64,000 bases of DNA from Balamuthia mandrillaris (lineage: Eukaryota). This document shows positions 20,566 to 43,940 of the stretch, in pieces. The first letter of the stretch is position 1. Every line of letters begins with the position of its first letter. The position numbers were made by a program, and so were the translations under genes. Under the pieces are notes generated by a model. That model made no database searches, was not told the origin of the DNA, and was given only the letters and a program-made list of their open reading frames with translations. The stretch covers positions 1 through 64,000 of the forward strand of contig JAVKOQ020000073.1 in assembly GCA_031835245.2 (NCBI GenBank), written 5' to 3'.

Positions 20566-20646
20566 ATAAGAGTCCTTATTACCTTATACCCCCCCCCCCC
20601 CCTCTTTCCATTAAGAGGCCCCCTTCCTCTCCTTTCCGAACATTTT

Positions 20647-20682
<36 letters not shown>

Positions 20683-20868
20683 GTTCGTTATAGATCGCGC
20701 ATGCTCAACTTGTGCGTGCATGTATTCATGTCGTCACGAAAAAACACGAACCAATGAAGAACAAGCCTGGTTAAACTTAAATTTCCTATTTTCATCCAGA
20801 ACAAACCGAACAAACAAACTATTTATTTATTTTTTTTTTCGAAGTGTTTTGCACCGCAGTATCAACAT

Positions 20869-21357
20869 ATGAAGCGCATCTTCGCTGTGTTCGTAGTGGC
20901 CTTGTTCGTAGGGTTGGCGGCGGCCCAGATGCCCACCAGCGCCAAACCCAAGGTAAAACCCTCCCTTTCCCTTACATGAAAGATGGACCGACGACTAAGG
21001 CTGGTGGTCCTTTAGCCTCCCAAAAACTTCCCTACACTGGAACAAGTGAATCACAAGATGGAAGAAAAGATGCAGGAGCTGAAGGAGTCTCTTGCTAACA
21101 AGAAGGGCCTTCGTGAACGTTTCGGCGCCTACAGGGAGACTCTGACTGAGCAACTGCAAAAGATGGGCCTTAACGGCAGAAAAGTGGAGCCCCTTGAAGA
21201 CTCAGAAATAACCCAAGTGTTGCGCCAAAGGGAGGAGGAGTACCTCAACTTCGTTAATGACTTCCGCAGGAAGGCAGAGGAGAATAAGGAACAACGCCAA
21301 AAGGAACAAGCCGAGCTGAGGGCCAGAGCTGAGGAGCTCAGAGCACAGCTTGCTTAA
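20869..21357 (+). CDS. Small secreted coiled-coil protein
   Basis: Signal-peptide-like MKRIFAVFVVALFVGLAAA. A phase-0 intron at 20953-21015 joins it in frame to the helical, charged exon 21016-21357. Confidence 0.65.
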
Positions 21358-21577
21358 AAAAAACCCTTCTTTCATTAAATGTTTCGCTTCCCATCCCACT
21401 CCCACTCACTCAGCTGTCCAGAAAATAAGCACCAACCACATCGCACACCACTATCCAAAGGAAATACCAAAAGTAACTACTCTCCGAGCTCTTCTCTTCT
21501 CTTCTTCCTCTCATCTACGCAAAAAGTTCTGATTGATAAGATGGTTTTTTGTTTGGGAACATGCAAGGGAAAAATGC

Positions 21578-22176
21578 TTATTCTTGGCTGGGAGCGTCCA
21601 TTGGGTTGTACCTGGGGCGAGGCTTGGTGTGGGCGAGGCGGACTTGACGACCATCCACTTCCTGTATTTTGGTGCACAGTGTGTGAGTGAAAAAATTGAA
21701 AGGGAGGATTGAGAGCGGAAACAGAAAGTACCATGGAACCCGTCTCAACAGCGCGGGCTGCAGAGTCTTCCTGAACGAATTCAACGAAGCCAAAACCTCG
21801 AGAACGACCGGTCTCCCTGTCCGAGACAACACGAGCTGAAGGGGAGTGTCAAGCTTCACTCTTTTACAAAAGAAACTGCGGGACTTACCAAATTTAACGG
21901 GACCAAAGCTTTCTAAGGCAGCACGAAGGCCGTGGTTATCAGTTTGCCAGTTCAATCCTCCCACGAAAATCCTTGTGGGATCGTTCTCTGGTTGCGTGCA
22001 AAGAAAGCGCTGAGAGCCGAGGCCAGCGGGGGTCTGTGTGAAGGGTCGGTAAGAGAAAATGCATGCCAGTGGGGTGGTAGAGGGTGCAAAATCTCTAAGG
22101 TGCTTACTCTGAGGGCAGGGGAGAAAGCGAGGGGAGTGCGGCGGCCAGCCAAAGACAAAGCGCGGGAGAAGCTCAT
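21578..22176 (-). CDS. Single-RRM RNA-binding protein (GRP/CIRBP-like) with probable mitochondrial presequence
   Basis: RNP2 RIFVGGLNWQTD and RNP1 DRETGRSRGFGFVEF, followed by EVDGRQVRL. The N-terminus MSFSRALSLAGRR is Arg/Ser/Leu-rich. Confidence 0.8.
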
Positions 22177-22689
22177 TGTTGTTGGAGTTTGGAGTTTTGC
22201 GAAAAAAAGCAAAATAAACGACTTGAAAGAAAAAAGGGGGATAGGTGACAAAAACCAGCGGGCAAAGGAAGGCCAGGCCAGAGGGGAGAAAGAAAACAGA
22301 AACACCTCCACCAACCCTCGATCGCGCCGTTATTCCAGGAATTATTCCGATTACGAAGAAAAAAAAGTGCCACAAAAGTTACGGGGGGCGTAGGAGATTC
22401 GCCCCTGTGCAGAGGTGGTGAAAGAACAACAAGCATTGAACTGCAGGGAGGCATCAACAGCCAAGTTGCTCCCATCATTCGGTTGGACTATTCGCCATGC
22501 GCCATGTTTCTCAACACCAAAGTTTAAATGTTATATTCCACAGAGAGAGAAAACGCACGTTCTTTCTTATTGTCCGGCTCCCGCAAGTCCACCAAATTTT
22601 GTATGGTGAGGGTTAAATTTTCTTGATTTGCGCAATATGAAGGCTTTGGATCCAACTCTATTTCGGTGATTACCCGAGTTTGGCTTCAA

Positions 22690-23560
22690 GGATGCAGCTA
22701 AATCCATTTGCACCTGTTTTACAGCCTCCCCATTAAGTCTTTACTCTTGATAGTGTGCCTTCTTTTCTCACACTAGCACTACTAATTTCTTTGTATTAAA
22801 CTGTAGTCCGTGAGCCATACCATAGTACCACTCTACAATGATACCCACTGCTGCCTCTTCTGCTCCTCTTTTGCACAATGTCCTTGCCATTATATCATGA
22901 TTTTACAAAGGCTGAACAAAAAGATGGAAGAGCAAGGGTGTGGATAAGCAATTGAATTAAGTGTGACAGTTAAAGAAATGTCTGTTGAAGAAAAGCAAGA
23001 ATCTTACTTGCTTTGCTGAGTATTAGCAAGGGTACCAAGTAGCAAGCTTGTATATGTTTACTTCTATACTTTAGCCATCAACAAAATTTCATTGCTTTGC
23101 TTTACTCTCTTAGTGCTTCAGATAGCTCAAAGAAGGAAAAAATGAAAGGAAGTCCACTTATTTCTTGTTATTCTTCTTTCTTTGCACTAGTATCATTGAT
23201 TCCTTTGCATTAAACTCAAGTCCCTGATTAATCACTGCCATCTTCTCTTGGGAGGATTGCTTTAGATTCTAGAAGGTGAATAAGGGAAATGAAAAACAAG
23301 TTGGAAGGCTGATTATAGAAGACTACATAACAACGCTATTATCAAGTGGTAAGAAATGCAATAGTGCACAAGAGATGAAAATACAAGGAAAGTTGTAAAT
23401 GAGTATGGAAATTATAGGCAGCAAGAGCAAGTTGAATGTAAGGAAGTTCTGCATATTATCAATCCTTAGAAGTAATATAAAAGTAAGACAAAGAGAAAAG
23501 AGGAAAAAGTAAAGAAAAAGATAAATATAATACAAAGCTTGTTCAACGAAGGAAAAGGAA
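22690..23560. mobile_element. Scrambled, internally deleted fragments of a non-LTR (LINE) retrotransposon
   Basis: 22700-22900 (-) matches the RT region at 25060-25500. 22905-23010 (+) matches 34240-34340. 23240-23520 (+) is an inverted copy of 23735-24010. Confidence 0.6.
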
Positions 23561-23699
23561 AAAGCTTACTCAGGTAGATTGAAACAATCCTGAGTTAATG
23601 CTAGTGAAGCAATAAAGAGGACAAAGTAACTTATATTTATTTAAATCCACCCTCTCAAGTGCAAACATGATGATTATGGATGAAGTTATGAAATAAACA

Positions 23700-25970
23700 C
23701 AATTAAAATACAACATGAAAAGGGAAAGTATCCTTCTCTTTCTTCTTTCTTCTTTTATCTTTTCCTTACTTTTACATTATTTTTGAACATTGATAAAATG
23801 CAGAAGAACTGACATACTTCCAACTTGCTCTTGCTGCTTATAAACTCCAGACTCATTTACAACTTTGTTTACATTGTTTTATCTCTTGAGCTCCATTGCA
23901 TTTCTTTTCACTTGACAGGAGCTTTTTTGTATAGTCTGACTTGTTCTTCATCTATCATTCATACTCCAGATTCTAAAGCAATCTTCTCAAAAGAAGTGTT
24001 TTGCAGTTTCTTCTTCAGCTTTGTATGCAGGTATAATAAGGCTAATAGAGGAACAACCTAATGAACACCAACTTGATGAGTGTAAGGATAAGACCTTTAA
24101 TAGAATAAAAGAAAAATATAATTATAGTACCTCTATAGGAGAGTAATATTACACAAGGCACTGACTGTCCTTTTTAATCTGCTGTATGGCTCTTTACTTT
24201 TTTTCAATGGGCAATCCACCACAATGAATAGCATTCATCAATCATTCTTTCCTTGGGTTGATCATCACTAAGCTTCATTGTTGTCTAACTAAACAGCTTC
24301 CACTTGTTCCTTTTTCTCCTTCAGCTATATACTCTGCCTTTGCTACTTCAGTAAGGCCCTCATCCTCTTGGCATTCTTTTCAATGTCACTTGTCTCTTCA
24401 CATCCCTTACCTTCTTTCTTCTCATCTTCCTCTTCCCTTGCTTATCTCTTCCAATAGCTCAAAGTGGTCATCTTGCCTTTCAGCAAGACGAATAACTGCT
24501 TGCCTTTCCAACTCAGTAAGCCTTGATGGTTGACCAGCCCAATTCTGCTCTACAAACCCCTAGCATACTCATCAGACCATGATTTGGAAAGCTCTGTCAT
24601 GCATATGTTGAGAATTACTCTCAACATATTAGTTCCGTTGCCCCTTTCCTTTCCTTTTCTTCCTGTTGACATCCTTGATGTGGACCAATCGCCTGCTGCC
24701 ACATCGCTAGGCTTCTTCCTTTTATTCCATTGCTTCCTCTTTCTTTTAGTTAGTTAGTTTTGTTTCACAGTTTTGGTTCACTCCACATTTTCCCTCTTGT
24801 TTGTTCCCTTGTTCCCTCTTTGAATAATACGTTTTGGCCCTGTCCATTCATGTTATTCGCCCTTTCTAACACATAGTCCATATAACAAGGTAGACTTGAC
24901 AATACCCTCTGCAGCAATCTGGCCAGTGTGTGCACCAAGGCCTTGAGCAATGGCTTCCCACTGCCTAAGGCTGTAGAGGACTTGCTTGGCCTTGGTAATC
25001 CTCTCCTTGGCATGAGTTGTCCACTCACCACTTTCTTCAAACCACAGTCCCAGGTACTTGGCCTGCTTCACACATTTCACAGCCTCCTCCTTAAGTCTTT
25101 ATCCTTGAAAGCAAGCCTTCTTTCCTTGTACTAGCACCACTGATTTCTTTGCATTGAACTGAAGTCCCAGAGCATTCACTGCCTCCACTGCCACATTTTA
25201 TCTTCTCTGAAGCTCAAAAGGATTACTGGCCACCACTGCTAGTTCATCTGCAAACATTCCTTGCTTTATCTCCTCTTTCCTTCTCCTTTGCCACTCGTAG
25301 CTTCTTACCATCACATCAATATACAGATAGAACAAGAAGGAAGACAAAACTCCTCCTTGCTTAACTCCTCTTTCTACTAGAAATTCCTCAAAAAGCTGCC
25401 TGTTCATATGCATGACACTTGTCATACCTTTGTACCCCTCTGTAATAATGCTTACTGCTGCCCCTTCTGCTCCTCTTTTGCCCCATGTTCTTGCATTGTA
25501 CAAGTGGTAATAAGTGCCAGGACGGATTTAGAAAAGGAAGAGGAATCATGGATCAAGTATGGCAGTTAAAGAAGTGCCTAATGAAGAAAAGCAAATATTT
25601 ATCCACCCTTGCTCTCTTGTTTGTATGTTTAACTGCACCAAGATAGCTCCCTCACACCTTGGTTGCATTGCATAAGAGAGAAATTCCTCTATAGTTTGCT
25701 GGATTCTAGGGATTTCCTGCTTTATGCAGGGGGATAATCTGGACCTGCTTCCTCTCTATGCAAACTCCCAATGGTAGAATCCTTCCTTCCCTATTTTGCT
25801 CAATGTTCCTTGAAAGCTGCCATACTACCATGGTGCTCAATAACTGCTTTGGGCTCCTCTGCTCTATGCCACTATCCTTCACATGTTGCCAATCAGTTTC
25901 TGCATTTCCTTGATATTCTCTTGTCTCTGCTGCTTCATTCAGTCTCATATGTTGGCTCTTTGAGCTGCTT
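23700..25970 (-). mobile_element. Decayed LINE ORF2 (reverse transcriptase + C-terminal CCHC remnant)
   Basis: Peptides IIPLHKAGNP*NPANYRGISLL, RGVKQGGVLSSFLFYLYID, GMFADELAVVA, VKQAKYLGLWF and EETAKHFF*EDC, with many stops and frameshifts. Confidence 0.85.
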
Positions 25971-26529
25971 GAAACACAGTATAAACAAAAAGGAGATCTC
26001 CTTTTGGAAATTTGAAAAGGCAAAAAATAATTTTTTAAATATTTTTCCAAAATCAAAAATAATTTTTTTTTCAAATTTTATTATTTATAATAAGGAAAAT
26101 CATAAATTATTTTTATAAGAATGGAATAGTATTTTATAAATATTAAAGATAACATTTTTATTATTATTGTTGTTTGAAAATTAGTATTTCAAAAACAGAA
26201 TTTAATTGTCTAATTTTGTTGGAAAACCAACAATTCGCGTCAAAATTTTGACTTCCTGTCGACACTTTCCCTGGATACCCCAAATTCTTTCACCCCTTTT
26301 TTATTTTCCCTTTTTCCTTGTGACACACTCAAAGCACACACTTTGGTCCACACCTCTTTTCTTGTGAATAAACCCAGAGTCGCTTACATGCTGTCCCTTT
26401 TTTGATCCGCAAGGTTTATCCCCCATCAACAATTTGTCTTTTCCTTTATCTTTTTTTGATTTGGTTGATTGAAAAGATGTGTTGCTATCAGAATCTGAAA
26501 AATCCTCATCACTATTATTATTGTTCTTT

Positions 26530-29500
26530 TTACTTTCTGTATTTTCTTTCTTTTTCTTTGTTTTCTCTTTCTTCTTCTTCTTCTTCTTCTTTTTCTTCTT
26601 TTTCTTCTTTTTCTACTTCTTTACTTTTATCTTTTTCATTTTGTTGTGCTTTTGATTTTTTTTGGTTTTTGGGAGTAAGCTTTGGAAATTCCTCATCTTC
26701 CTCTTCAGATTGATTACTATCTTTTGGAACTTCATCATCTTCATCATCTGCTTTTTTTGGTACTAAATCATCTTTCAGAACTTTTTGTTTTTTCTTCCAA
26801 GCATTTAAGCCTTTTTGCACCTTGTTTCTATCTAACACAGTGGTTGCTAATAATTTTGCATGCTCTGCTATTTTGTAGCCCCAGAACCAGGAAACAAGGC
26901 CAAAAAATGACGCACTGCTAACATTTATAAATGTTTTAGTGCATTACCAAAAGAAACAAGAAAAGGAAAAACAAATGGATGAACTTACTTTCCAAACAAA
27001 CTGCAGGCAAACAACCTGTTGTGGGATTAAAGGCCAACACCACATCTTTAGGCTCTGTGAATGTGTTCAGCAAATAACGATACACATTTAAAGGAGGAAC
27101 AGGAGAAGAAGAGAGATTCGCCTGATCAGCCACTTGTCCTTCCTGAGCTTGAGGTCCCTTGATTGAAATCACCACTGAAGTTGGTTGCCATGTCTCCAAG
27201 GCCAACAGAGAAGAAGTAATCGAACTAGAATCATCTTGCAACTGTGTTTGACCTTTGTTCCACACTGCCACAAAGATGCCATTCTCACACCATTGTTGTT
27301 TGTTGTTATGATTGGAATGGTGAGGTTTGTACCAAAAAACAAGAACTGTTTCTAACTTCAAGTTAATCAAAAGCTGATGTAGCTTTTGTTTATAGGCATT
27401 GATTTGATTCATGGCCAAGTGCAAGTGATTAAAACAGGTAGTTATCAACAAAACCCTTTCCACATGATGGTCTGGGAAGAATGAGAGAAAATTAGACAGA
27501 CAGCAATCTGAGTTCTTTGGAAAAAATAACCCAAAAAAGACTTACTTTGGCAGTGTACTCCCAAGGAATCAAGCATCAAGGGAGCATGTGTTGGTAAATT
27601 ATCATAAATGATCACTTTGAACTTGGTAGAAGGGGAATGAGAAGCAAGCACGTCCTTTCCCCATTTGTTGAGTTGGTGGGCCAATTGTTTGGAGAGTTGA
27701 GGAGGAGTGTTGAGTTTGGGTCTGCCACGATGATGATTTTTTGCTTTTTTGGCCTGGTGTTTGGAAGAGGTCTTTGGTTGTTGTTTTTTGCTTTTTCTTT
27801 TTTTTTCCTTTCAATATCATGAAATGGTTTTGGTGAAGGAGGTGGAGAGGGTTGAGGTGTAGTGGTGTTTGAGTGGAATGGAGGAGAAGCTGGTTCATCA
27901 GAGGGTATGTGTTGCTAGCAGCAATGAATGAATAAATGAATGAAAGATAGCAAAAGGAAATGTTAGCTAAACTTCAATGCCATAGAAACCAATGCACTTT
28001 AGAAAAGGCATACTTGAATTGTGTGGTGAAAAGCAGTATTTCCAGATAAGCCTTGTTTCTCAAAGAACTCTTCATCATACTCGCCACTGTTCACCTGATC
28101 TTGGACTTCCTCCAAGTGGGCTAAAGGAATCTCTTTTTCAGTATGATACAATTCCAGTTCTTCATGCATAGCTTTTCGACCAATGTGTTTCCACATCTGC
28201 ATGTATGCACATTTCATGAGGAAAAGTAGTAGTGACAAGATAGAAAAAGAAAAGATTACAATGCGGCTTACCAATCTTTTGAAGTTGGTACAGAACATTC
28301 TTCCTTGGGATTCTCGAGGTGCCTTGCCCATATCTCTTTCAAGGCTGCCAACAAGGTTTCATCTGATAAGGAGCTTGGCATTTTCTCTCTCAAGTGGTAA
28401 AGAGTAAACACCCAGCCTCCCTTCTCTTTGTCCTTCTCCTGAATATAACTCCAAGACTCTGGGAATTTCTGCATTTTGTTTGCCACTGTTTTCAAACATC
28501 AAACACGATCAAAGGTGAGAGCACTATGGGCATCTTGGGAGGAAGTTTGCAAATTCTAAAATACAAAACCCACCTATCACAAAAGAGAGAAAATGAGCAA
28601 TCATTTCAGAAAGCTTGCCTGCAACCAAAGAAGGCCTACCAGATAATGGAACAGCTCCTCTGGTGTTTTCGTGAGATGATTATACACAAAACAGACCATA
28701 TCCAATTCTGTCTCTTGATTGACTCCTTTGGACAACACCAGGTTGTCCCAAGCAGACAACTTCCAAGAAATATGAGTAAGTCACCTTGTTAGAAAACAGA
28801 AAAAGCAACAGAAAACTCCAAGGTATTGTACCTTGTTCAAGACAGCCACACTTGGAAGTTGTTTGCCATCAAATGGCAGCACTTTGGCCCTCCAAGTTAA
28901 CTCCTTCAGCTTTGGGGAGTTTTCAGTACAATACATGGGCTGCTGCACATCGATGGTTACCTCCAAGACATACATATTCTTGTTGATTGCTTTCTGGATG
29001 CACCCACAAAGCTGAGGGCAGTTCCATCAATAATAAAGAAGAGTGTTCATCAAAAGACAAAATGCTGCCTGAGTTGAATGTGGCCAGCAGCTTGTTCAAC
29101 CCCTCCAGTTTTAGAGGTTGATGCCAACCTGATAAAACAAATGAAGTCAATGACAGTACAAAGTTAAAAGAAGGCATGAAAAACTGTGGAGGGTGTCCAC
29201 TGTGCAGCCAATGCCCTTCAACTAGTCAACAAGAGAGAAAAAGGCCAGAGGCATGAGCTGCGCTGTACAGCGCAGCCTATAACCTTTTCTTGCCAGCCAA
29301 ACAAGAAATTTAGGCAGCAGTTGTGATCTGCGCCATATGATGCAATCATCGCCCGAACTATAAAAGGAAAGTGTTGATCTGAAGGCTGATCTGCGCCCTC
29401 CGCTGCAGCCAACACCCTCCCTTCAAAAATACCAGAGGATTTGAAGGGCTGAGCTGTGTCATATGGCGCAATTAATGATTTCCCTTTTAAAGTAATGGAG

Positions 29501-30157
29501 GATTTGAAGGGCTGAGCTCTCCAGCGTAGCAAATGAGCTGAAGGGCTGATCTGCGCTGTATGCTGCAGCCAACACCATCCCTTCAAATAATAATTTGGGT
29601 GAGAGAAGAGAAAGGGCAAAAGTAGGATGAAGCTGGACTGGCCCTTCTCCCTTGAGGAAGAAAGAAGCAAGGCGAATAGTGGCCGTTCAGCCATTAACTA
29701 TAACACCAAAATAAAAGCACAAACCTTTCATAGTAATAGCTTTCAACGGAACCAAACGAGTTCCCTCCTGAAGCCAAGTTTGACAAAGTTCTGCCACCTT
29801 TTTGGTTTCCTTATCTGCACTATCCGGTGCACAAAATAGATGCACAGCTTCCAAGTCACTCTCACACAAAATCCAATCATTTTTTGTTGGAGCACTACAA
29901 TAAAAACCTCAATTGCTCACCAGAAAAACCAAAATGGAGAGCAAGTTGTTTTACCTATTGGACAGGGAGGAAGATGAGCCTTCATCTGTTTCCAAGAGGT
30001 CCGATGGTTGGTTGGAAGAAGGGTTCAACATAGGAGTTTGGAGCATTTGCAATTTGTGTGACAAGACAGATTTGGTGTCCTTGGTGGTCCATTGTCCACA
30101 GAGGTCCTCAATCCTTTGCCGCAGTTCTTTCACTGTCAATCTCTTGTTGTTCGACAT
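26530..30157 (-). pseudogene. Spliced gene: SAP/HeH-like motif + ParB/Sulfiredoxin-like domain + beta-class N4C/N6A DNA methyltransferase-like domain + acidic/basic tail
   Basis: N-terminus MSNNKRLTVKELRQRIEDLCG..TKSVL. A phase-1 intron at 29129-29724 joins TRLVPLKAITMK-G-WHQPLKLEGLNKLLATF, followed by EYVCLGGNHRCAAA (28950-28964), WRAKV and LSAWDN..TELD. Further down are DVL..KFKVIIYDNLP, LVFWYKP and PLNVYRYLLNTFTEPKDVVLAFNPTTGCLPAVCLE|.RHFLAL. Several frameshifts and stops are present. Confidence 0.62.
29195..29590. repeat. Palindrome cluster 1 (inside the long intron of the ParB/MTase-like gene)
   Basis: Perfect 20-bp palindrome GCTGCGCTGTACAGCGCAGC at 29257-29276. Variants start at 29328, 29391, 29454 and 29551, several preceded by AAGGGCTGA(T/G) or followed by GCAGCCAACAC. 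Confidence 0.85.
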
Positions 30158-30344
30158 AATCACAACAGCAAAAATAAAAAACAAGGAATATGTGTGAACG
30201 GTGTGAATGGTTGTGCACTTTTGTGACAAAATAAAATTTTGAGAGTTTGTTTTGCTTTTAGCTTTCTTTTTCTTCTTTCAAATTTCGTTTGATTGGTAGT
30301 CAAATCGTTGTGGTTTGCTGCAGACTTTGTGGAGGGCAACCAAT

Positions 30345-30795
30345 GACCCTTTTCTGCTCTCTTTTCTTTTGTATAGCTGGCATCAGCTGCGCTGTACAGT
30401 GCAGATTAGCCCTTTTGTATGACAGGCATGGGCTGCGCTGTACGGCGCAGATCAGCCTTTTTCCACAATTTTTTCTTTTGTATGGCAGGCATGGGCTGTG
30501 CTGTGTATTATACGGTGCAGATCAGCCCTTTTCTGCTCTTTTTTCTTTTGTATGGCTGGCATTGGCTACGCTGTGCAGCACAGATCAGCCCTCTTCAGCT
30601 TTGTCTACTATTGTATGGAAGGCATTGGCTATTCTTCCTATCCAATGAAAAGCAAATTTTTTCAAATTTTTCTAGCAAGCAAGAGTGTTGAGTGCATCAT
30701 ACAATGCAAAAGCGCCCTTTCCTTTCAACAAAGAATTTAGCAACCTTCATTGTGAAGGGCAGATCTTGTGCCGTACAGCACAGCCAATACCCTCT
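30345..30795. repeat. Palindrome cluster 2: imperfect ~46-70 bp tandem units between the divergent ParB/MTase-like and transposase genes
   Basis: The unit is approximately TTTTCTTTTGTATGGCAGGCATGGG-CTGCGCTGTACGGCGCAG-ATCAGCCCTT. Cores lie at 30387, 30433, 30496 and 30566, with a degenerate copy at 30692 and an inverted-flank copy at 30766. Confidence 0.85.
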
Positions 30796-30927
30796 TATAT
30801 CCTTTTGATTATTTATCTATTCTGCTGCCATTATTTTTCTTGTAAAGTGTTTAGCTTTTATTGATTCTTCTGGTTGACTTATGAGGTTTCTTTAGATAAG
30901 ACATCATTGCAGTAGAAAAAGAGCACC

Positions 30928-33140
30928 ATGGCCTTCCAACCACCATCCAAACTGAAAAGCACTGCACATCGGTTTTTTTAAGAGCAACATATCCGGACTT
31001 CAAACAGTTACTGCTGTCAACAATACTGTCTTACCAGCATTCCATCAGAGGATCGAGAGATGCGCACCTATTATTGGACACTGGACTCAGAACAAGCCAG
31101 AACCAAATTTCTTGTGGATTGCTTGCTTCTTTCTTATGGCCCTTATCAAGAGACCAGAGCTGTCAGCCCTCCAAGCAACGATTGCTTTTGGCTGGTCATC
31201 TGGTTTGTTACAAAGCAATCCAATTATGGCTGGCCCTTTCCAATAAGAAGTTTTATGCCTGCATGGACTTGTGGAAAACAGGAGCCACTTTACCTCTTCA
31301 TCACAATCGTGGCCTGGTTTGGCACTTCACCACCTATATGCAAACCAAAGCCTGGCTCACAGTGTACTTTGCCAATATGGGAGAATCCTTGCCAAACTCT
31401 GAAGTCATTCAGATTCCAATGATATTGAATCAAAAAGCCTTGTATCAAGAAATGGTATTAAGCCTGGGACATGACCAAAGCATCAGTTATGCATGCTTTT
31501 TGCAAATGTTGCATGAAGATTTCTTTTATGTCATTTTTCCAAGGTAAGCTTTGTTTTTTGAGAGAGTTTGTCAAAAGAAAGGAATGATTCATTGTTTTTA
31601 TTCTAATAACCTGTTAATGGATAATTGTTATTGCTTTATGTATTAGCAAACCAGATTAGGAAAATGTGATCAATGTGCTCAGCTTCTAGTTCGTTTTAAA
31701 CAATGCAAGAGTGTGGAGGCATTGCAAGGTTTACAAAAGGAACGAAGTGATCATTTGCACTTTGTTCGTTTACACAAAGAGAAGTATTACAAGCATCGTG
31801 CTAAAGCCAAAGCCTCTCCTTTCAAATACATTTCCATCATTATGGATTATACAGAGGCCATTCCTCTTCCCCATCATCATACTCCCCCAAAAGGCTGGAT
31901 CATCAAAAAGTTTATTGGTGTTTCTTGTTTCGGACTGATAGATCATGAGCATCATCATCGTTATCTGTGTTATCATTTTGATCAGTGGTCACGTGATGCC
32001 AATTTAGAAATCAGGCATTAATTTTACTTTCTCATACAAACATTACAACAACCCATTCAAGCCCATCCCAACCAAACCCTCTACCTTCAAGCTGACAACT
32101 GCTACAAAGAAAACAAAAACTAGTATTTATTGGCCTTTTTATGTTGGTTGGTGCATCTCAAGATGTTTTCCAAGATCTAACTTTGCTTTTTGCCACCTGG
32201 ACATACTTATGAAGATGTGAATCAAATGTTTTCCACCTTTTGTAAAGCATTACTCAAATTTGATATTGAAACCTTGGAGCAATTCTTTTCATTCATTAAC
32301 TCTTCTTATTTAACGGATGAAACTCGTCCAGAATGACATCCTTTGGAATGGATCTGGGATTTCAAAGGTTGGTTGCATCCTTTCATGGTAAATCTTGAAA
32401 ATAATTCCCAACTTCTATTTTTCAAATTATTATTTATCCCACTCCTACAATGACCTGCCCTCCAACATAGCCCATTTTATAAGTGAAATCCAACATTCAT
32501 GCTCCTTGGAGCAAACCGATTTCATTGGTAAAAGGATTTCCAAATCTATCTTGATATTCCACTCATATTCCTCATTTGATACCCAAATCTTGTGTAGAAG
32601 AAGAATGCATTCAAGGTACTCAATCTACTTTTTCCACTAGTACACTATGTATGTACAATGCTTACTTTTTATGTATAGGTTGGTGTTGCTTTCAGAGCAA
32701 ATAAACTTCTTATTACTACTACTACTACATTTTCCACTATTTTGCTTTCTTCCAAACTTCGCTTACAAGCATTGATTTATAATTTACAACACCCTTCATT
32801 CCCTTTGGATAATCCTTTTTTTACTTTGTTTCAACCTATGACTGCTTTAAATCGACAACATACTCCTTCATTCTCTGCATCCACTTCTTTGACTTCAGCT
32901 GCTTCCTCCTCTTCAATCAAATTTTCATCTCAAGTTATAACATCTGGTTGTGCTACTTGCATACCTTTCCATATTTTATCTAATCACATTTATGCTATTT
33001 GTCCAAAAGATGGTTCTTCAAAGGACTTTTGGCTTGCATTTGTTCATTCCACAACACCTCGTAAAGCTACTGTATTATAGTATACAAAACGAGGTCAACG
33101 CTATTTTTTACAAAAGGAAACTCAAAACATCATTGCAATT
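30928..33140 (+). pseudogene. DDE/D transposase pseudogene, Sola1/DUF7869-like
   Basis: Motifs CCQQYCL, RLGKCDQC...H, SIIMDY, TLYLQADNCYKENKN*YLLAFLCWLV, FLPPGHTYEDVNQMFS, WDFKGWL and C-terminal FWLAFV. There is an intron at ~31544-31646 and multiple stops and frameshifts. The superfamily assignment is from recalled motifs. Confidence 0.8.
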
Positions 33141-33389
33141 GTTGTTGTCATTGTTGTTGCCATTGCACTTGTTTATTTTGTCTACTATCTTTTTTATCTT
33201 CTCTTTTCTTGTTCTTCTTTTGTTGAAACAGGAACAAGTAACACACACAATGGCACACATACTTTGTTCAATTGTATTAGCAGTGTTTCTCACAAGTGTG
33301 GTAAGCTCGCTGAGGCAGGCATACTGTCCCTTTTCTAAGATAGTTGTGACAAGTGGCAAGTGTGGACTGATTATTGGCCAATGGTAATC

Positions 33390-34530
33390 GAGTTGAAGGA
33401 TTCATTTTAGAAGAATTGTGATAGGGTTTGGATGGAACAATGGAAGTGGAAGTCCTACTTAGAGGAAAATCACACAAGGAGATGGGGGGAGTACAAACAC
33501 AGGTTCAAGCTTTTCTTCAAAGAAGAGGAATGGAAGGCCATAGTGAGGAAAGGAAGCCATGGTGAACAGCAGATTTAACATCCTTGAACAAGCAGGTGGT
33601 GAAAGCCTATGCTCAGTGGCTGAGAGAAGGAAAGAATGATGGGAAGGCCAGAAAGGAGTTTGTAGAACTTAGTGAAGTTGTACAAAGCCAACAAATGGGA
33701 CTGGATGAAGGAAAGGAAACAAGAGAACTTTAAGGAAATGCAGAAATGGATTGGTAACATGTAGAGAATAGTGGCAAAGTGTAGAGCAGAGCCCAGGCAG
33801 TTATAGAGCACCATGGTAGTATGGCAGCTTTCAAGGAACATTGAGCAAAGCAAGGAAGGAAGGATTCTTCCATTGGGAGTTTGCATGGAGAGGAAACAGG
33901 TCCAGAAGGACCGTCTTGGTCTGGCAGCAACTGGCTTAAGAAGAAGAGCTTTAATCTTGCATAGAGGAAAAGAAGGAGGGTGAGCAAAGCAGCTTGAGTG
34001 GACAATATTGATGGGAAAATGATGAAGTATGGAGGTAAACATGTGCAAGATGCTACTTGAACACTGATCAAGGCCTTTGAGAACCAAGGTGTATTCCCTA
34101 AGGAGTGAAAATAGGGGGTGATTATCCCCTTGCATTAGGCAAGATATCCCCAGAATTCAGCAAACTATAGAGGAATTTCTCTTCTATGCAATGCAACCAA
34201 GGTGTTTATGGGAGCTATCTTGGTGTAGTTGAACATACAAGCAAGAGAGCAAGGGTAGATAATGCATTGCCAGAATGGATTTAGAAAAGGAAAAGGAGTC
34301 ATGGATCAAAGGTGGTAATTAAAGAAATACCTAATGAAAAGAAGTAAAGAACTTACTTATATTGCAGAGATTATGGGCAGCAAGAGCAAGTTGGAAGTAT
34401 GGAAGTTTTTCTGCATTTTATCAATCTTTGAAAGTAATGCAATAATAAGGAAAAGATAAAAAAGAAAAGGAGAAAGCAAAGGATAGCTAGATGATATAAA
34501 GTTAGTCTAAAGCTCATTCAACACCTTTCA
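33390..34530 (+). mobile_element. Decayed LINE ORF2 fragment, same family as 23700-25970 but opposite orientation
   Basis: 33685-33905 is the reverse complement of ~25740-25955 (shared GAGCACCATGGTAGTATGGCAGCTTTCAAGGAACATTGAGCAAA). Remnants IIPLH..ANYRGISLLCNATKV and QNGFRKGKG are visible. Confidence 0.8.
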
Positions 34531-35580
34531 CTTGTGAACTAACATAACAATTGGGAAGGCATTGAGGATGAGGGAGTAAGAGAAGTAAGAGTACACTATG
34601 TATGTACAATGCTTACTTTTTATGTATAGGTTGATATTGCTCTCAATAGTCATCAGAAGTTTTTATAAACTTCTTATGACTACTACTACTACAATTGTGG
34701 CCTTATATATTATCACAAGTTATCTAACTTGTATAGAAAGGCCAGTTCCTGTGCTGTATCGGTTCTTTGATCATATAACTTTCCTTTTATAATTCACAAG
34801 ATTGATCGCTTTCCTTTTATAGTTCGATTCTGATCTGCACAGATCAACTTTAGATCAAATACTTTCCTTTTATAGTTTGGGTGGTAATTGCACTGTACGG
34901 TGCAGAATAGTCAACTATTCAAATTTTTAAAGAAATAATTATATTTGTCAAAAAACAAAATTGTTTCCAATAGTATTCAAATGCAGAACCTTTCGATTAA
35001 TTTACTAACATCTTGTCCATTGCACTATTTTTACTTCATTACTTTTTCCCTCAATCATGTTGATAGTTATAGTAAGATATGTACCATAAATGGTGAGATT
35101 AAAAAGAAACACAGTACAAACAAAAAGGAGAATCTCCTTTTGCTTTTCACTTGGATTATATGGCAAAAAAAATTATTTTTCTATTCACAAAAATATTATT
35201 TTTCATTTTGTAAAAAGAATAAAAAAAAAGGTTTTCTTATTTCCAAAATTATTTTTTCCTTCAAAAAAAAATAATAAACACAAAAATAACTATATTTACA
35301 ATATATTCGGTACATATCTTACTATAACTATAAAATCAAAATTATATGATAAAATTCGTGGAGCAACTATTCAATGGACACCAACTTGATAACTAAAGGA
35401 AAAGACCTTTATTTAAGTGAAGAAAAGAGAGAAGGGAGAATGGGAAATTATTATGAAAAAGTGATATAACAAAACTTTCAATATAAACATTCAGTTTAAA
35501 ACAAAACTAGAACAAAATAAATAAGGCTCTTTATAAAACAAGTTAACTACAAAGTAAAAAAAGCAATTACAAACAAAAGT

Positions 35581-38500
35581 TTAACAGGTTTGTGTTATGA
35601 GGCAGTTCCAATGCATGCTCAATAGTTGCCATAGAATAACTGAGTCAATAAGTGGTGTATTATGAGAATCTTGACCATTTTCTTCTTGCTCTTCACTGTC
35701 ACTGCTGTCACTGTGTGAAGGACCAGCAATAAAAGGAAAAGAAAAGCAACTAAAAGCTGTGGTAGAAGCTGAAATTATAGCTTGGGGTCTTGATGAAGGA
35801 ATGGGAGCAGAGGAACAAGGGAAGAGAAAAGGTAGGATTTGATATCTGTGAAAAGGTCCAAGCTCTGCAAATGTGAACATGCCTTCCATTTGATTTTTGC
35901 TACTGCTGTCCTTTAGCATAGAAATAAGCACTTTAATGAATTCAGTGGGAAGCTAGTAGATACCATTAGTACAGTGTTTGCTCTGAAAGTTAATATACTG
36001 ACCTGTTGCTTTGAGGCAATATCCTGCAAAAAGTCCTTTTTCAGTACTTGAAAGGCAAAGCCCTTCAGACTAGCATCTTTTGACTTGGTGAATAAAAGCT
36101 TCACTTCTTGTTTCCGTAAGTGCAGTTCATGTTGATAACTCTCAGAAGTAGCAAGTTGAGGCATTGGCTGCTGCAAATCAAAGTGGTCACCATACTTGAC
36201 GAGCAGAGAGAGCAGTCTTCGCTTTATGTCAAATGAGTTAAGGTGATTGATGGCTGATGGCACAAGATTGAGGGCACATGTGAGACCTTGCTTACTACGA
36301 AGTCGCCCAAAGAGGTTAATTGCCTTGATAAGAATTTTGGTGTCTCTACTTTTAAGCAACGAGACCAAAGGATTCAAATGAGCTGTAATAGTCACACAAC
36401 AAGCTTCAGCAAGCAACATAAAGGCCTGAATTTGGTTATCTGGGTCTTCAGCAAACGAATTAAGCAACTTGGTGAGCTTGAATGTGTAGTGAAAGCGAGT
36501 GATGAGCTTAGGGTTGATGCGGAGGATTTTGAGGGCAGCCTTTTTGACCATTGGGATGGTGCTGTTGAGGCTGTTGTTGATAATGGGAGGAAGGATAAAG
36601 TTGTAATACTTGTTCACAAGCAATCGTCTCTGCTTCACCCCTTGCAATTTCTCGTTAACCTGTCTTTGCATGAGGGACAAGTGGACTGCGTTTACTGGCT
36701 GCATAGCAGCTATTTTCCACCCCTCATGTGTAGCCTCCATTGCCCGCAAAAGGTATTGAATATGGTGGAGGCGCTGCTCGTTAATGTCCAGGTCAACCTC
36801 TTTCTTGTGCAGGTGTTGCAGCAGTAAGCCTGTGGCCAGAAGACACGCTTTGCAGAGTGAACCTTCCTCATTTCGCTCATTGGACAGAATGTCCATGATA
36901 TCGTGAACAAAGAGGATCAATGTTTGAGGGCCTAACTTCATAAGAACACCTAGAGCCTCTTCTCTGACAAAAGCGTCGTCATCCGAATCAGATTCCTCAA
37001 AATCGGATAAGTATAGCTCTTCCTCAAAGGACTGGTCGCCAGAAAGAGAAGGAGTCCCAGAACTGTGGTGAGGCCTCTTGGCAACGTCCTCGGTACCTAT
37101 TGAAGAGAGGGAGAGGAGGCAAAGAGGAGAGTGTGAGAGAGCGCGAGAGCGAGACTAAACGTAGATGAAGAAATGTGAAAATTCAAGTACCTCTCAGCAA
37201 TGCCCCTAGTTGCGCTATATGTTCTTCGTCAAAGGGGAGGTATGACGCTAATACTTTCAACTGATGAGCCGCAGTTTCTCGGAGACAAGAATTCTCGCTT
37301 TTAAGGAACTCTATGAAACATGGTATATAAGAGAGGGAACGCCGCCCAAAGGATGCAAGCGCTTCTAGCACAACAATCCTTAAGTGGCTTTTGGCGTTAA
37401 GAAGGCTGGCCACAGTAGCCAGCCCTTCATCTGATATATTCTCCCTAAGAAAGCATAATGCACGGATAGTTGATTCTTGAACCGCATCGTTTCCCTCTCC
37501 GTCCATGTTGCTTTCTTCCCGTAGGATTTGCAGAAGAAAGTGCTCGATTCGTTTTTGCCAGCCTGCAAATAGTGGTTGTTTGGTGGATCGTTGTGGTAAG
37601 GTTGGCACGACTGCTGTTGTCTGACAAAACATGCCAAGAGCAGTTACGGCTGTGGCTCGAATGGTAAAGAGAGGAGACTTGAGCAAAGAGCAAAGGGCAA
37701 TGATATGCTCGTCTTCCAGTCTGATGTTCATGCCTATGGTATTGCCGTAGTTATTTAGTTTGTGGTGGTGGTAGTGCCGAGCAGTGTTGTTGAGAAGTAG
37801 GTTAAGGAGGCTTGTTGCTTCCATCCGAAATGTTGGATCCGTTTCGCTTAACATAATGAGCGTTCTATTTAACATCTGCTCTACTGCATCCTTCCAATCG
37901 ATTGAAGGGTGATGAGGAGTAAATTTGCTTGGTTGAAGAGGTCCTGTGGCTGTAGCATTTTTGCGGTAATGTGATATGATTAACGGCGCCTCTTCTCTCT
38001 CTTTGTCATTGAGTACAAACAGTAGCCTTAAGCAAGAAAGTATAACCCAAGCAGACCTGTGGGAAAGCAGTTTTGCGCATCGTCTTGCCAGCTCTGCGCG
38101 AGCAGTAAGCAGGGCATTGATGATGTTCTTCTTGCTGTCACCACAACTAGTTTCTGCTGCCGCTTCTGTTTCTTCTTGTTCATCTCCTTCTACCTCTTCC
38201 TCTGTCAGCTGTTGTGACAAAGGACGAACATGGGTGATGTGTTGCGTCAACTGATTCGTTGCTACTACGTTTAACTTCTCGATAATCGCTTCTCTGAGGA
38301 TAAGGTTTCCACTATCACGGTCATGCTTTTCCAGTAGGTCCAAAAGCAAGAAGAGATAGTTCAGGTGTGTATTGCAGGTGTGAGGGAAGAGATGCTCTTC
38401 CATCGACAGGGAGAAGCGAGAGGGCAAGGACTTGAGTATGAGAAGTTGCAGATCTATGCTCAACTGTAGGGAGTTGTGGGATTGAAGTGCGGTATCTAAG

Positions 38501-41500
38501 GTGCGAGGTTTTGTGTTTGACTTGTTTGCTTCCGTTTGCATCGACGATGTTGTTGAAAGAGGCAGCTGCAGCAACCAAGATGAGAGCAAGGAAAACTTAT
38601 GCTCAGAACTATGGCTGAGCAAATGGTCTGGTATGAGGCGCAGAAGTGGAAGGATTTCCTTGATAACAAAGTCGTTTAGCCCTTCAACAAAGTCACCTTT
38701 TGAACCTCCTTCTCTTCTACCAGCTACGTCAAATGGTGCCATCATCAGCTTCTGCAGTACAAGCAAGCCATTATTTTTTGTTTCTGGGCAATTTTTGCTT
38801 GTTTTTTCTCGTTCATCTCCTTCTCCACTGTAATGGTCTTGGCGTAGACCCTCCTGCTCCTCGCTCATCTTCAGCAACAAGACAGCAGAGATGCGGGACA
38901 TGAACGTTGGTTTACACTGTAGCAGTTCCATCATCGAGGCGGCGTCAGGACATGCAGCCGCTTCCTCGCCAAAGGCATGAAAGGCCACCGACACAAAGGC
39001 TCGTACAAATGGGCGTTCCTCGTTGGTCTTGCCGAAGATAGGCGGTGATGAGGTGGTACGACGATCGACATCTTTAAGCCGCTTGAGCAAAGCTGGAGGG
39101 TAAGATGGTTGATAGGCCTGGCTAAGCATAGCCAAGACCTGACAGGAGGCCACACGTTCTGGGTCTGTTCTTTGGCGGGTTGGCAACAGGGTGTCACCAA
39201 GAGTTCCCAGCACTGTGAAGACCAGCAGGCGTAGACCGGCATCTTCACTGCCTACCCATCGTAACAGCCACTCGTAGAGATCGAACATCTTCATCATTTT
39301 TAGCGCGGAGTTCATCAACTGCTTCCATTCAAAGCTCTCAAAAACGTAGCTTAATGGCATGACTGTGCAGTGAGTGACAGCAGAAGTACCAGTGGGAGGC
39401 GGGGAGAGCCGCAACAATTGTTTGAGAAAAAATTCTCGTTGCTTGGTTCCTAGTTGGAGCAATGAGAGTTTGCCAAGCTCCTTCATTATCAGCGTGGCTT
39501 CTCTTTGCACGCCACAATCCGAGTCCTTCAGCAAGTCGATGATGAGGTGGATGATGTTGAAGTTGTTGATGTTTTCCAGGTCAGGAGAGCTTTTTCGTAG
39601 GTTTATTTGCCACAGCAAGTGAATAAGGCTCCTCCGTATTCTGATGGAGTGTTTTTCCGACTCCGCTGCTTGTGGTTTGCGCTTGGGGTCGGAACCTTGT
39701 GTTGGCGGCAGCGGCTTGGCGTTTCGCACACTTCCAAGGTTGCTACTGTGTTGTCTGGCCTTATCTCGTTTCTTTTCTTCCTCAAAGAGAGCGATAAGCT
39801 GGGATATTTTTGCCTCGTCTAGGAAATTTTCGGGCAGGAATTTGAGTAGAATGGGAACTACAAAGAGATCCAGGTTGTTCTGGTGGGAATATTTCAGCAC
39901 AGAGATGCATTTGGTGATGACCTTGTTTACCATCTTGCTGCCAAGGCAGTAGTTCAACTGTAGATAGACAGGATAGGATTGAAGATGCATAAGACTTGTC
40001 TCTGATTGCAATACTAATTCCCAAAATGTACTGCCAAGCTGCGTCACATCTTTGAGGGGGAGCGTAGCGGCCGTAGCCCCTTCTTCCTCCTTCTCTACAT
40101 GTCCTGTTTGACTTCTATCGCCACTAACATCGTCATCGTGGAGATCAAGTGCTGCAACGCCCATGCTAGCTTGAAGGAGGCAGCCCTCACATGCCTTGGC
40201 TCTCAGCAGCAGCGAGAACCTTACTTGACCAAGATCGTGCGGATCCGTTCCACAGGCTCGAAGCAAGTCCAACCACGTCTGGTAAAAGCCACAGCTGACA
40301 TGACTCGTGGATTTGGGCGAGGAGGGAGAGGGGCCGGATTGTGTTGTGGGACTAGAAGTGAGGGTTGGTGGTGAAGCTGCATCTTCTTCATGATCTACCG
40401 TTCCATCTGTTGCTAGCTGCTGGTGCTGTACCTGCGCACTGCTCACGCATTCATGGTATAGCCGTATAGGATGTTGAAGTATTCGCTCTGCCATCCACGG
40501 CATTCCTTTGCTGTAAGACAAGAACAACCATACCGCATCCCACCACCAATGGCTTATATATCTTTGTTGCGAATCCTTCGACAACCCCCACCACCATCTC
40601 TCGTCGTCAACGTGTCTGTCTGATGGTAGTTTTAGCTCATTAGCAAGTTGGTAGCACTCATTGCTGCTGCTAGAAAGGAGGATAAATATCCGAGAAGCTA
40701 AGCGTTCGTCCCGCAGAAACTCGGCCACTAAGAACTGGTGAAACAGAGTCTCCTTGAAGGATAATACTTCCAGCGATGGTCTCTGCTCTGGCAGGTGTGC
40801 ATCTTGTCCGTGGTGGTCGCTCAGTGGAACTTCCTCTCCTTCCTCAGCTCGTGGTGTACATGCAGAACGTCCTACACGCATTCCACTGCATAAGCTTTGC
40901 GGGAGTACGTCTAATAACTCATCTAATAGTTGAGAACCGTTGTGTACCGACAAAGAGCTATGAGGCAAGGCTTCTATTAGAATCTGCAACGAGTCGATGA
41001 GAAAACGTCGTTGTAGTGATGTCCGATGCACCCCCTTCGTTCGGCGTTCATCCTCCCAAAGAAAAATGAGAAACGCGAATATGCAGAGCCATTGCTTCCA
41101 GTCGCGGAAAACTTGTGCTTTCGTCTCTAAACCGCAACTTGATGGAGTTCTATCTTCAATCGCCTGCCGTTCAGTTTGCACCCGAAGATTGTGGAAGAGG
41201 TGGTCGTGCACGATGTCATCCAGCAAGTGCTGATAAAACTCGAACAGAGTCTGGGCAATATCGCCCATTCCTTCTCCTCCTGAGTGGATGGGGGCTTGTT
41301 TCTCTTCACTTGACCGCGAGACGCCTCGCATAGCGCATTCTCTTGCTAGTAGATAGAGTTGTAAGGGTGTGAAGGATGTGGTGGTTGGGGCAAAGGGTGA
41401 AGGTAGCTGTGGTGGCGTGCAAGCCACGCGCGCTGAAGGAGAGGGGGGAGGTGGATCAGGAAGCAGCCTTAGTTTCTTGTTGTAAACCAGCTTCCAAAGA

Positions 41501-43497: not shown

Positions 43498-43940
43498 GGT
43501 GTACGCAGCCCCGTGCCCCCAGCGCCACCTCCACCTCCACTGCCACCAACGATGAGAGAGAGAGAGAGAGAGAGAGAAAGGCAAGCTGGCTCTCCTCCTT
43601 TCTCCGTTGTTTTGGTGGTGAGCGGATCTAGCGTTTTTTGCTAAGGGGGAGGGATACCGGGAGGCAACACACGTCATATTTTAACGTGGATGAGGTCACT
43701 CGATAACAGGCACAGGCAGGGAAGGAGCTCCTCCTCTGCTCTCTCTCTGCCCAAGGGGTGGCCACCTCTGTTTTCGGCAGCAGCCGCCTCAGCGCTGGTG
43801 GCGGCGGCGCAGAGGACGAGACGGTCTCTTCCCCCACCAACCACTAGCAGAAACCAATCGGAGGAGTAGCATTGCCTCTCCCCTCCCCTTGTCACCCTTT
43901 CCTCTGCTCTCCTCTCGGGTGTCTTGCCTTTCTATCAGCC

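What the first reader, a model, noticed from the sequence alone, without database searches (positions are those of the whole stretch)
25972..35360. Candidate new cargo-carrying DNA transposon: Sola1/DUF7869-like transposase divergently paired with a spliced ParB-methyltransferase gene and its own palindrome arrays
Seen: a transposase pseudogene (30928 onward, +) and a multi-exon gene (30157 to 26530, -) point away from each other across ~770 bp filled with palindromic repeats. Both are similarly decayed and lie between two near-identical hairpin motifs. Established: ParB-N plus N4/N6-MTase fusions are common in phages and other prokaryotic mobile elements, and some eukaryotic DNA transposons carry DNA-modifying cargo (e.g. 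KDZ elements with TET/JBP). Inference: this is one mobile unit in which a prokaryote-derived ParB/MTase module has gained introns and marks, coats or protects the element's own DNA. I do not know of a described Sola-like element with this cargo.
Basis: partly seen in the sequence, partly recalled or inferred. Interest (0 to 1): 0.9.

Follow-up and report, generated by a model that had tools for sequence, protein, structure and literature searches.

The report
Amoeba transposon carrying ParB pseudo-methylase gene
This is a broken copy of a repeated, likely cut-and-paste jumping gene, apparently of the amoeba Balamuthia, whose passenger gene is predicted to bind palindromes in the element's own DNA; the same design is already described in algae, but here the methylase part likely no longer methylates.

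Summary
The anatomy is real. A DUF7869 transposase pseudogene (30928 onward, +) and a nine-exon gene (30157 to 26202, -) point away from each other. They are equally decayed, 93% and 94% identical to other copies. Near-identical Balamuthia mandrillaris gene models exist on 12 contigs. In 3 of the 4 other contigs with a transposase, the passenger gene is the next record, ParB end first. The passenger has predicted ParB-N and N6/N4-methyltransferase folds. An 18-bp palindrome recurs between the genes, inside the passenger's second intron and near the right end. Corrections: (1) The two flanking hairpin motifs are direct repeats, not terminal inverted repeats; ends and target duplication are unresolved, so Sola1 membership is not shown. 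(2) The design is not new: Ectocarpus Sola1-1_Ec32 carries an opposite-strand ParB-methyltransferase, and red-algal Plavaka elements pair ParB with palindrome arrays. (3) The catalytic and SAM-binding motifs are replaced in every Balamuthia copy that covers them, so the passenger likely coats rather than marks DNA. Verdict: a new amoebozoan member of a known kind, with a likely pseudo-enzyme.

The parts
25971..26006 (+). Left copy of the 37-nt motif with an 18-bp palindrome; abuts a decayed LINE on its left. Candidate left subterminal sequence, not a shown terminus
26202..30157 (-). Passenger pseudogene, nine exons (30157-29955, 29894-29725, 29128-28832, 28759-28640, 28555-28272, 28196-28014, 27914-27546, 27471-26989, 26917-26202): ParB-N-like domain, helical middle, N6/N4-methyltransferase-like fold, acidic tail; one in-frame stop and several frameshifts
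28832..29760 (-). ParB-N-like domain (end of exon 2 plus exon 3), split by the palindrome-bearing intron; GxxRxxA-type motif GGNHRCAA kept in 5 of 6 other gene models that cover it and in this copy
   Evidence: TM 0.56-0.64 to ParB_N clusters, under the Atlas bar for naming a family
26790..27690 (-). N6/N4-methyltransferase-like fold with replaced catalytic and SAM-binding motifs (approximate limits)
   Evidence: TM 0.53-0.61 to N6_N4_Mtase clusters, meets the bar; PHROG methyltransferase E 1.4e-4
26212..26435 (.). 219-bp nested high-copy insertion with a 5-bp AATTT duplication, interrupting the passenger's last codons; skipped by contigs of other copies
   Evidence: joint 26211 to 26431 in 4 of 4 runs
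29251..29571 (-). Array of six decayed palindrome units inside intron 2 of the passenger, mostly 63-70 bp apart, inverted relative to the intergenic array
30386..30786 (+). Intergenic array of five palindrome units (core CTGCGCTGTACAGCGCAG); four in + orientation 46-70 bp apart, one reversed
30928..33130 (+). DUF7869 DDD-type transposase pseudogene, one intron; third acidic residue is N in this copy and D in two other copies; 3' end approximate
32640..32739 (+). 100-bp LINE 3' stub with (TAC)n tail and 10-bp target duplication, inserted in the transposase; absent from gene models P0006 and P0013
33276..34698 (+). 1.4-kb decayed LINE insertion with the same tail and a 7-bp target duplication
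   Evidence: the related left-flank copy hits RVT_1 at E 1.9e-11
34828..34914 (+). One clear palindrome unit (34887) and one partial unit near the right end
   Evidence: score 20.2 against a null maximum of 17.9
35060..35334 (.). 26-bp inverted repeat pair (35060-35085 and 35309-35334) enclosing the right copy of the 37-nt motif (35106-35142); candidate end structure or small derivative element

Best explanation
This is a dead copy of a multi-copy, likely cut-and-paste, Sola-like DNA transposon, apparently of Balamuthia mandrillaris, whose passenger protein is predicted to bind and coat the element's own palindrome arrays through a ParB-type domain, while its methyltransferase fold is likely a non-catalytic DNA-binding module. 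Shown: the two genes, their divergent layout, equal decay, several copies, adjacency at three other loci, three palindrome clusters, and replaced methyltransferase motifs. Inferred steps: (1) The DDD transposase of an intact copy excised and reinserted the roughly 7.7-kb unit (span minus later insertions). (2) The passenger, transcribed from the shared intergenic region, loads at the parS-like 18-bp palindromes and spreads along the element as bacterial ParB does. (3) The coat would shield the promoter and ends from host silencing or help bring the ends together, and the array inside its own intron would give feedback control. (4) After insertion this copy was silenced and eroded by transitions, and was hit by three later insertions.
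For: Unit: transposase gene models lie on 5 contigs and passenger models on 11, 12 contigs in all. Leaving out the contig whose records carry this window's own substitutions, 3 of 4 transposase contigs have a passenger model at the next accession number: KAL6068537/38/39, KAL6070433/34/35, KAL6063529/30. In each the ParB part is nearest the transposase, as here. Summed contig depth is raised to a similar level over passenger, intergenic region and transposase in 3 of 4 runs (X1 299-695 against 36-74 in flanks; X3 107-348 against 15-23; X4 20-96 against 3-9; X3 and X4 are one sample). Equal decay. Folds; 6 of 9 weak phage hits are annotated DNA methylases on the same stretch. Pseudo-enzyme: against four phage methyltransferases, DPPY-type becomes DNLP, HPxQKP becomes SPVPP, DFTMGSG-type becomes AFNPTTG and GIE becomes ALF. 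DNLP is in 8 of 8 models, AFN in 6 of 6 and ALF in 5 of 5 that cover these sites. Palindromes: a matrix trained on three intergenic units finds four more units above the null maximum, three in intron 2 and one at 34887, and none outside the element. Silencing: CpG observed/expected is 0.21-0.28 in the two genes and 0.05-0.09 in the LINEs, against 0.56-0.68 in host sequence. Precedent.
Against: No terminal inverted repeat or target duplication was found at the proposed ends, so cut-and-paste mobility of exactly this unit is inferred. On 7 of 10 other passenger contigs no transposase model was found; 5 of the 7 are only 13-42 kb, and the transposase search covered only proteins of 470 aa or more plus one cluster. 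On 1 of 4 other transposase contigs no passenger was found. Adjacency rests on accession order and contig length, not on DNA; short contigs may be allelic duplicates. In run X6 the unit is at about flank depth (2-30 against 16-23), so it is not amplified everywhere. Summed contig depth is not a copy number. The ParB call is under the Atlas bar for naming a family, and Pfam, NCBIfam and PDB sequence searches found neither passenger domain. The alignment at the DPPY site is by eye: MAFFT and hhalign aligned only the C-terminal 56 residues well (probability 87%). No sequence-specific DNA-binding helix-turn-helix was identified. Most gene models split the passenger between the ParB and methylase parts; only P0019 and the chimeric P0002 bridge them. 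The element is CpG-depleted, so any protection was incomplete. No intact copy was seen: P0006 and P0013 skip a stretch that is conserved in P0007.
Confidence: 0.6

Rival explanations
1. Same mobile unit, but the passenger is an active amino-methyltransferase with non-canonical motifs that writes 4mC or 6mA on the element (the first reader's 'marks' reading and the published hypothesis for the algal elements).
For: The fold is retained. The first acidic residue of the DPPY site is kept as D in DNLP. PMC4738411 notes eukaryotic clades with unusual strand-4 motifs (section 8). The motif IV alignment is by eye.
Against: All four diagnostic sites are altered together, including the glycine-rich loop and the acidic residue after the next strand. 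The changes are shared by all copies, so they are not decay of this copy.
Confidence: 0.15
2. The palindromes are transposase-binding or promoter elements, and the passenger is a hitchhiker or acts elsewhere on host chromatin; it does not act on its own element.
For: One palindrome unit lies near the right end, where transposase sites are expected. No binding data exist. No DNA-recognition domain was identified in the passenger.
Against: Eleven of 13 units lie in or next to the 5' part of the ParB gene, not at the ends. Red-algal ParB accessory genes also have adjacent inverted-repeat arrays, beside an unrelated transposase.
Confidence: 0.15
3. The two genes were copied together by another route: as part of a larger element whose ends lie outside this span, or by segmental duplication. 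The 37-nt motifs would then belong to a small, more abundant element that happens to flank both sides.
For: The motifs are direct repeats, and the right one sits inside its own 26-bp inverted repeat pair. Depth at the motif is higher than over the genes (35122: X1 1968, X3 1694). No target duplication was found.
Against: Depth falls to flank level in the host gene beyond 35900 and in unique stretches on the left (X3 records at depth 12.7-16.7), so host flanks were not co-amplified. The unit contains its own transposase.
Confidence: 0.1

Closest known systems
Sola1-1_Ec32 of Ectocarpus (PMC12477816; passages, section 5 part 2 and one supplementary row read; figures not seen)
   Same: Sola-type DNA transposon with a second gene on the opposite strand that fuses a ParB-like domain to an N4C/N6A methyltransferase domain; nested insertions; proposed to bind and modify its own sequence.
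   Different: 21.5 kb with a 282-bp imperfect TIR, AACCG termini and a 4-bp TSD; 1104-aa cargo, transcribed. Here about 7.7 kb without later insertions, ends unresolved, amoebozoan host, cargo about 900 aa with replaced motifs. I could not compare sequences, nor see whether its genes are head to head or whether it has palindrome arrays.
Plavaka accessory genes PAG2 and PAG3 of Bostrychia and other red algae (bioRxiv 10.1101/2025.02.11.637652; passages read; supplements closed)
   Same: ParB-domain accessory gene with adjacent tandem arrays of inverted repeats, proposed to bind its own element; a DNA methylase (PF01555) accessory gene in the same element; cassettes move between transposon families.
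   Different: EnSpm/Plavaka transposase; ParB is fused to a 2OG oxygenase and the methylase to a SET domain, in separate genes.
Phage and bacterial beta-type N6/N4 DNA methyltransferases (PF01555), some fused to ParB_N (PMC4738411 passages and section 8)
   Same: Predicted fold and order of motifs; one Atlas cluster of the matches carries ParB_N in 29% of members.
   Different: They keep DPPY-type, HPxQKP, DxxxGSG and GIE motifs and lack introns; sequence identity is only about 27-35% over 43-79 residues.
Inactive methyltransferase domain of DIRS1-type retrotransposons (PMC4738411 passage)
   Same: A transposon-borne amino-methyltransferase fold whose catalytic residues are substituted in all copies.
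   Different: Retrotransposon polyprotein, PCIF1-derived group-2 fold, no ParB, no palindrome arrays.

Membership tests
Sola1 DNA transposons | DDD transposase of the Sola1 clade | tested here: inconclusive
   DUF7869 met. Acidic triad IIMD / QADNC / GHTHEDVD in P0006 and P0013. No Sola1 reference sequence was available, the founding paper is not held, and no paper in the library names DUF7869; the link DUF7869 = Sola1 is recalled.
Sola1 DNA transposons | Terminal inverted repeats | tested here: inconclusive
   The proposed end motifs are direct repeats, and no inverted match between the end regions exceeds shuffles. The true ends may be truncated by the left LINE or be the 26-bp pair at 35060/35334; they were not defined from other copies.
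Sola1 DNA transposons | 4-bp AWWT-type target site duplication (PMC3845634 passage) | tested here: inconclusive
   By eye, no 4-bp AWWT duplication flanks 25972-25975 and 35334-35354, but the ends are not defined.
ParB-methyltransferase accessory-gene transposons (Sola1-1_Ec32 type) | Second gene on the strand opposite the transposase and travelling with it | tested here: met
   Window layout; adjacent records at 3 of 4 other transposase contigs.
ParB-methyltransferase accessory-gene transposons (Sola1-1_Ec32 type) | ParB-like domain and N4C/N6A methyltransferase domain in one polypeptide | tested here: inconclusive
   Both folds are predicted (meets the bar; one search is under it). Fusion follows from frame-compatible GT-AG joins and P0019, but most gene models split the gene and no transcript was examined.
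Active N6/N4 amino-methyltransferases (PF01555) | Catalytic (D/N/S)PP(Y/F) motif | tested here: not met
   DNLP in 8 of 8 models; position assigned by eye against four phage enzymes. Motif names are recalled.
Active N6/N4 amino-methyltransferases (PF01555) | Glycine-rich SAM-binding loop and the acidic residue at the end of the next strand | tested here: not met
   AFNPTTG and ALF align with DFTMGSG-type and GIE in the well-aligned block (hhalign probability 87%); shared by all covering copies.
ParB CTPase clamps | GxxRxxA motif in a ParB-N fold | tested here: met
   GGNHRCAA in this copy and 5 of 6 other models; one has Q for R. Fold lead. The motif definition is recalled.
ParB CTPase clamps | CTP-dependent loading at a palindromic parS site and spreading | not testable with these tools
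   Palindrome arrays are present; binding is untested.

The most novel reading that the evidence does not exclude
An amoebozoan transposon has turned a phage-type ParB-methylase into a pure DNA-coating protein: a eukaryotic ParB/parS clamp that loads at palindromes in its promoter and inside its own intron and uses a dead methylase fold as a DNA or modified-base reader to hold off host CpG methylation. The element might also move with ends that are not simple terminal inverted repeats.
Probability: 0.3. Interest if true: 0.7.

Novelty: new member of a known kind. Interest (0 to 1): 0.42.

Why it matters
It extends the ParB-methylase accessory-gene design from algae to Amoebozoa, so the design is recurrent across eukaryotes. 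It also gives a natural test of the published self-marking hypothesis: here the family spread with methylase motifs already replaced, which points to DNA binding, not methylation, as the part under selection. The 18-bp palindrome and the ParB domain form a concrete pair for a binding assay. The CpG depletion of repeats hints at host cytosine methylation of transposons in this amoeba; one search found no paper on that in the library.

Tried and rejected
No whole genome is held, so copies were counted from protein records and contig depth. AlphaFold2 models of the passenger (single sequence, mean pLDDT 33) and of the transposase (4-row alignment, pLDDT 34) were unusable, so no fold search was run on them. 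Pfam, NCBIfam and PDB sequence searches named neither passenger domain. Search of 1.84 billion representatives with P0009 gave 4 hits, all B. mandrillaris: the passenger has no detectable sequence relative outside the species. Transposase relatives: none in viral contigs; 2 loci in metagenome contigs, 1.4 and 3.2 kb, too short to show neighbours, with no match to the passenger. The ends were not examined with reads at fine scale. Rfam and ARAGORN found nothing. Rejected: hairpin motifs as TIRs (same orientation); 26530 as the passenger's stop (frameshift); the NCBI names of these models, such as 'digestive organ expansion factor' (no support); P0008, P0011 and P0020 as independent copies (they carry this window's own substitutions and were left out of the counts). 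Searches for an earlier description in amoebae; none found in the held library, which lacks most subscription papers and Repbase.
Full report
Observation. The plus strand from 30928 encodes a broken transposase: the core hits Pfam DUF7869 at E 7e-43, and it aligns with a 607-aa Balamuthia mandrillaris gene model, P0006, at 553 of 597 residues. It has one GT-AG intron at 31544-31646. The minus strand from 30157 holds nine exons joined by eight GT-AG introns that match gene models of other copies at 550 of 587 residues. All close homologues of both genes are labelled B. mandrillaris, so the window is apparently from that amoeba. The passenger's shared end is at 26202, not 26530: a frameshift and a 219-bp insertion interrupt its tail.

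Later insertions. A 100-bp LINE stub with a 10-bp target duplication sits in the transposase at 32640-32739, and a 1.4-kb LINE with the same tail and a 7-bp duplication at 33276-34698. Related LINE pieces fill 22700-25970; one hits RVT_1 at E 1.9e-11. Removing the three insertions leaves a unit of about 7.7 kb.

One mobile unit. One contig carries this window's own substitutions and was left out. Of the other 4 transposase contigs, 3 have a passenger model at the next accession, each time with the ParB part nearest the transposase. Of the other 10 passenger contigs, 7 have no transposase found; 5 of those are under 42 kb, and the search was limited to long proteins plus one cluster. Laid contigs of four runs give a raised, roughly even summed depth over both genes and the gap in X1, X3 and X4 (two samples) and flank-level depth in X6, where both genes are present but about 4-5% diverged. 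The tool warns that such depth is not a copy number; I use it only as agreeing with the record count.

Ends. The 37-nt motifs at 25971 and 35106 are 94.6% alike but in the same orientation. No inverted match between the end regions exceeds shuffles (107 against a maximum of 117). The right motif sits inside a 26-bp inverted pair, 35060-35085 and 35309-35334, and the left motif abuts a LINE that may have removed the true end. No 4-bp AWWT duplication is visible. The ends remain open, so I say the element works like Sola1 but do not file it as a member.

The passenger. Sequence profiles barely see it: Pfam and NCBIfam give nothing, and PHROGs gives a methyltransferase at E 1.4e-4. The Atlas model of copy P0009 matches N6_N4_Mtase clusters at TM 0.53-0.61 and meets the bar for that name. 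The N-terminal part of copy P0002 matches ParB_N clusters at TM 0.56-0.64, under the bar, and keeps a GxxRxxA-type motif (motif recalled). Four phage methyltransferases from the weak hits were aligned. In the well-aligned block, HPxQKP is SPVPP, the DFTMGSG-type loop is AFNPTTG, and GIE is ALF. The DPPY site, placed by eye, reads DNLP. These states are shared by every copy that covers them, so the family spread with them. The domain is likely a pseudo-enzyme, though a non-canonical active site is not excluded.

Palindromes. The core CTGCGCTGTACAGCGCAG occurs 4 times at up to 3 mismatches, against 0.02 expected. A matrix trained on three intergenic units finds three units in intron 2 and one at 34887 above the best score of 30 simulated windows, and none outside the element. 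By eye there are 13 units: five intergenic, six in intron 2, two near the right end. Intron 2 splits the ParB domain itself. P0002 and P0025 translate the same intron sequence, so other copies have the array there too.

Mechanism. Most likely the transposase of an intact copy cut and pasted the unit (inferred). The passenger is predicted to load at the palindromes like ParB at parS and coat the element, with the methylase fold as a binding module, shielding promoter and ends from silencing or helping to pair the ends (inferred, by analogy). CpG is depleted in both genes (0.21, 0.28) and more so in the LINEs (0.05, 0.09) against 0.56-0.68 in host DNA, which suggests host cytosine methylation of repeats as the pressure; methylation itself was not measured. 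I give this whole account 0.6, and the narrower claim of one co-mobile unit about 0.9.

Comparison. PMC12477816 (passages, section 5 part 2, one supplementary row) describes Sola1-1_Ec32 of Ectocarpus with an opposite-strand ParB plus N4C/N6A methyltransferase gene and proposes self-binding and self-modification. BioRxiv 10.1101/2025.02.11.637652 (passages; supplements closed, and they may hold alignments that bear on the comparison) reports ParB accessory genes beside inverted-repeat arrays in red-algal Plavaka elements. PMC4738411 (passages and section 8) covers ParB-linked methylases of phage origin and the inactive DIRS1 methylase. PMC3627910 (passages) shows Sola2 elements with Fanzor cargo in other Amoebozoa. 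PMC3845634 (passages) gives the Sola1 AWWT hallmark. BioRxiv 10.1101/2025.02.25.640156 (passages) says Balamuthia transposons await dedicated annotation. PMC5751038 and 10.1101/2021.09.26.461848 (passages) added nothing diagnostic. An unchecked note of this scan reports the same design in a probable invertebrate. I found no description of this family in amoebae.

Verdict. Real, multi-copy and correctly read as a cargo-carrying transposon, but a new member of a known kind. What is new is the amoebozoan host, the likely dead methylase and the array inside the ParB gene's own intron. Interest 0.42.

Noticed in passing
window 22700-25970, 33276-34698, 32640-32739: A very high-copy LINE-like family with a (TAC)n 3' tail and 7-10-bp target duplications. 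It also interrupts the passenger in other copies: P0002 and P0019 contain the same LINE-derived peptides, so this transposon family is a repeated target.
   Followed up: partly
window 26212-26435: A 219-bp high-copy insertion (depth about 3000 in X3 against about 130 over the genes) with a 5-bp AATTT duplication and GTTG...CAAC ends; no Rfam or tRNA match. Possibly a MITE or SINE.
   Followed up: partly
window 22700-34700 against host DNA: CpG observed/expected is 0.05-0.36 in repeats and 0.56-0.68 in host sequence, suggesting cytosine methylation of transposons in this amoeba.
   Followed up: partly
window 29251-29571: Successive units in the intron array are 70, 63, 63, 63 and 34 bp apart; 63 bp is six helical turns, which would put bound proteins on one face of the DNA.
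   Followed up: no
window 35060-35334: A 275-bp segment bounded by a 26-bp inverted repeat holds the right-hand motif, and depth at the motif exceeds that over the genes. It may be a small non-autonomous relative that preserves the family's true ends.
   Followed up: partly
P0002 residues 285-395 (exon 3 equivalent, window 28832-29128): Atlas feature search ranks unnamed eukaryotic clusters (Cnidaria, Ascomycota) and fungal DUF3723 (0.93) above bacterial ParB, hinting at a wider family of eukaryotic mobile-element ParB domains.
   Followed up: no
records KAL6063526, KAL6063529, KAL6063530 (170,729-nt contig): Passenger fragments lie on both sides of one transposase record, one fused to LINE sequence; perhaps two nested or adjacent copies.
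   Followed up: no
window 35913-43680 (-) and 16233-22378: Host neighbours: a very long HEAT/ARM-repeat gene (2165-aa open frame without introns) on the right and RRM-domain genes on the left.
   Followed up: no
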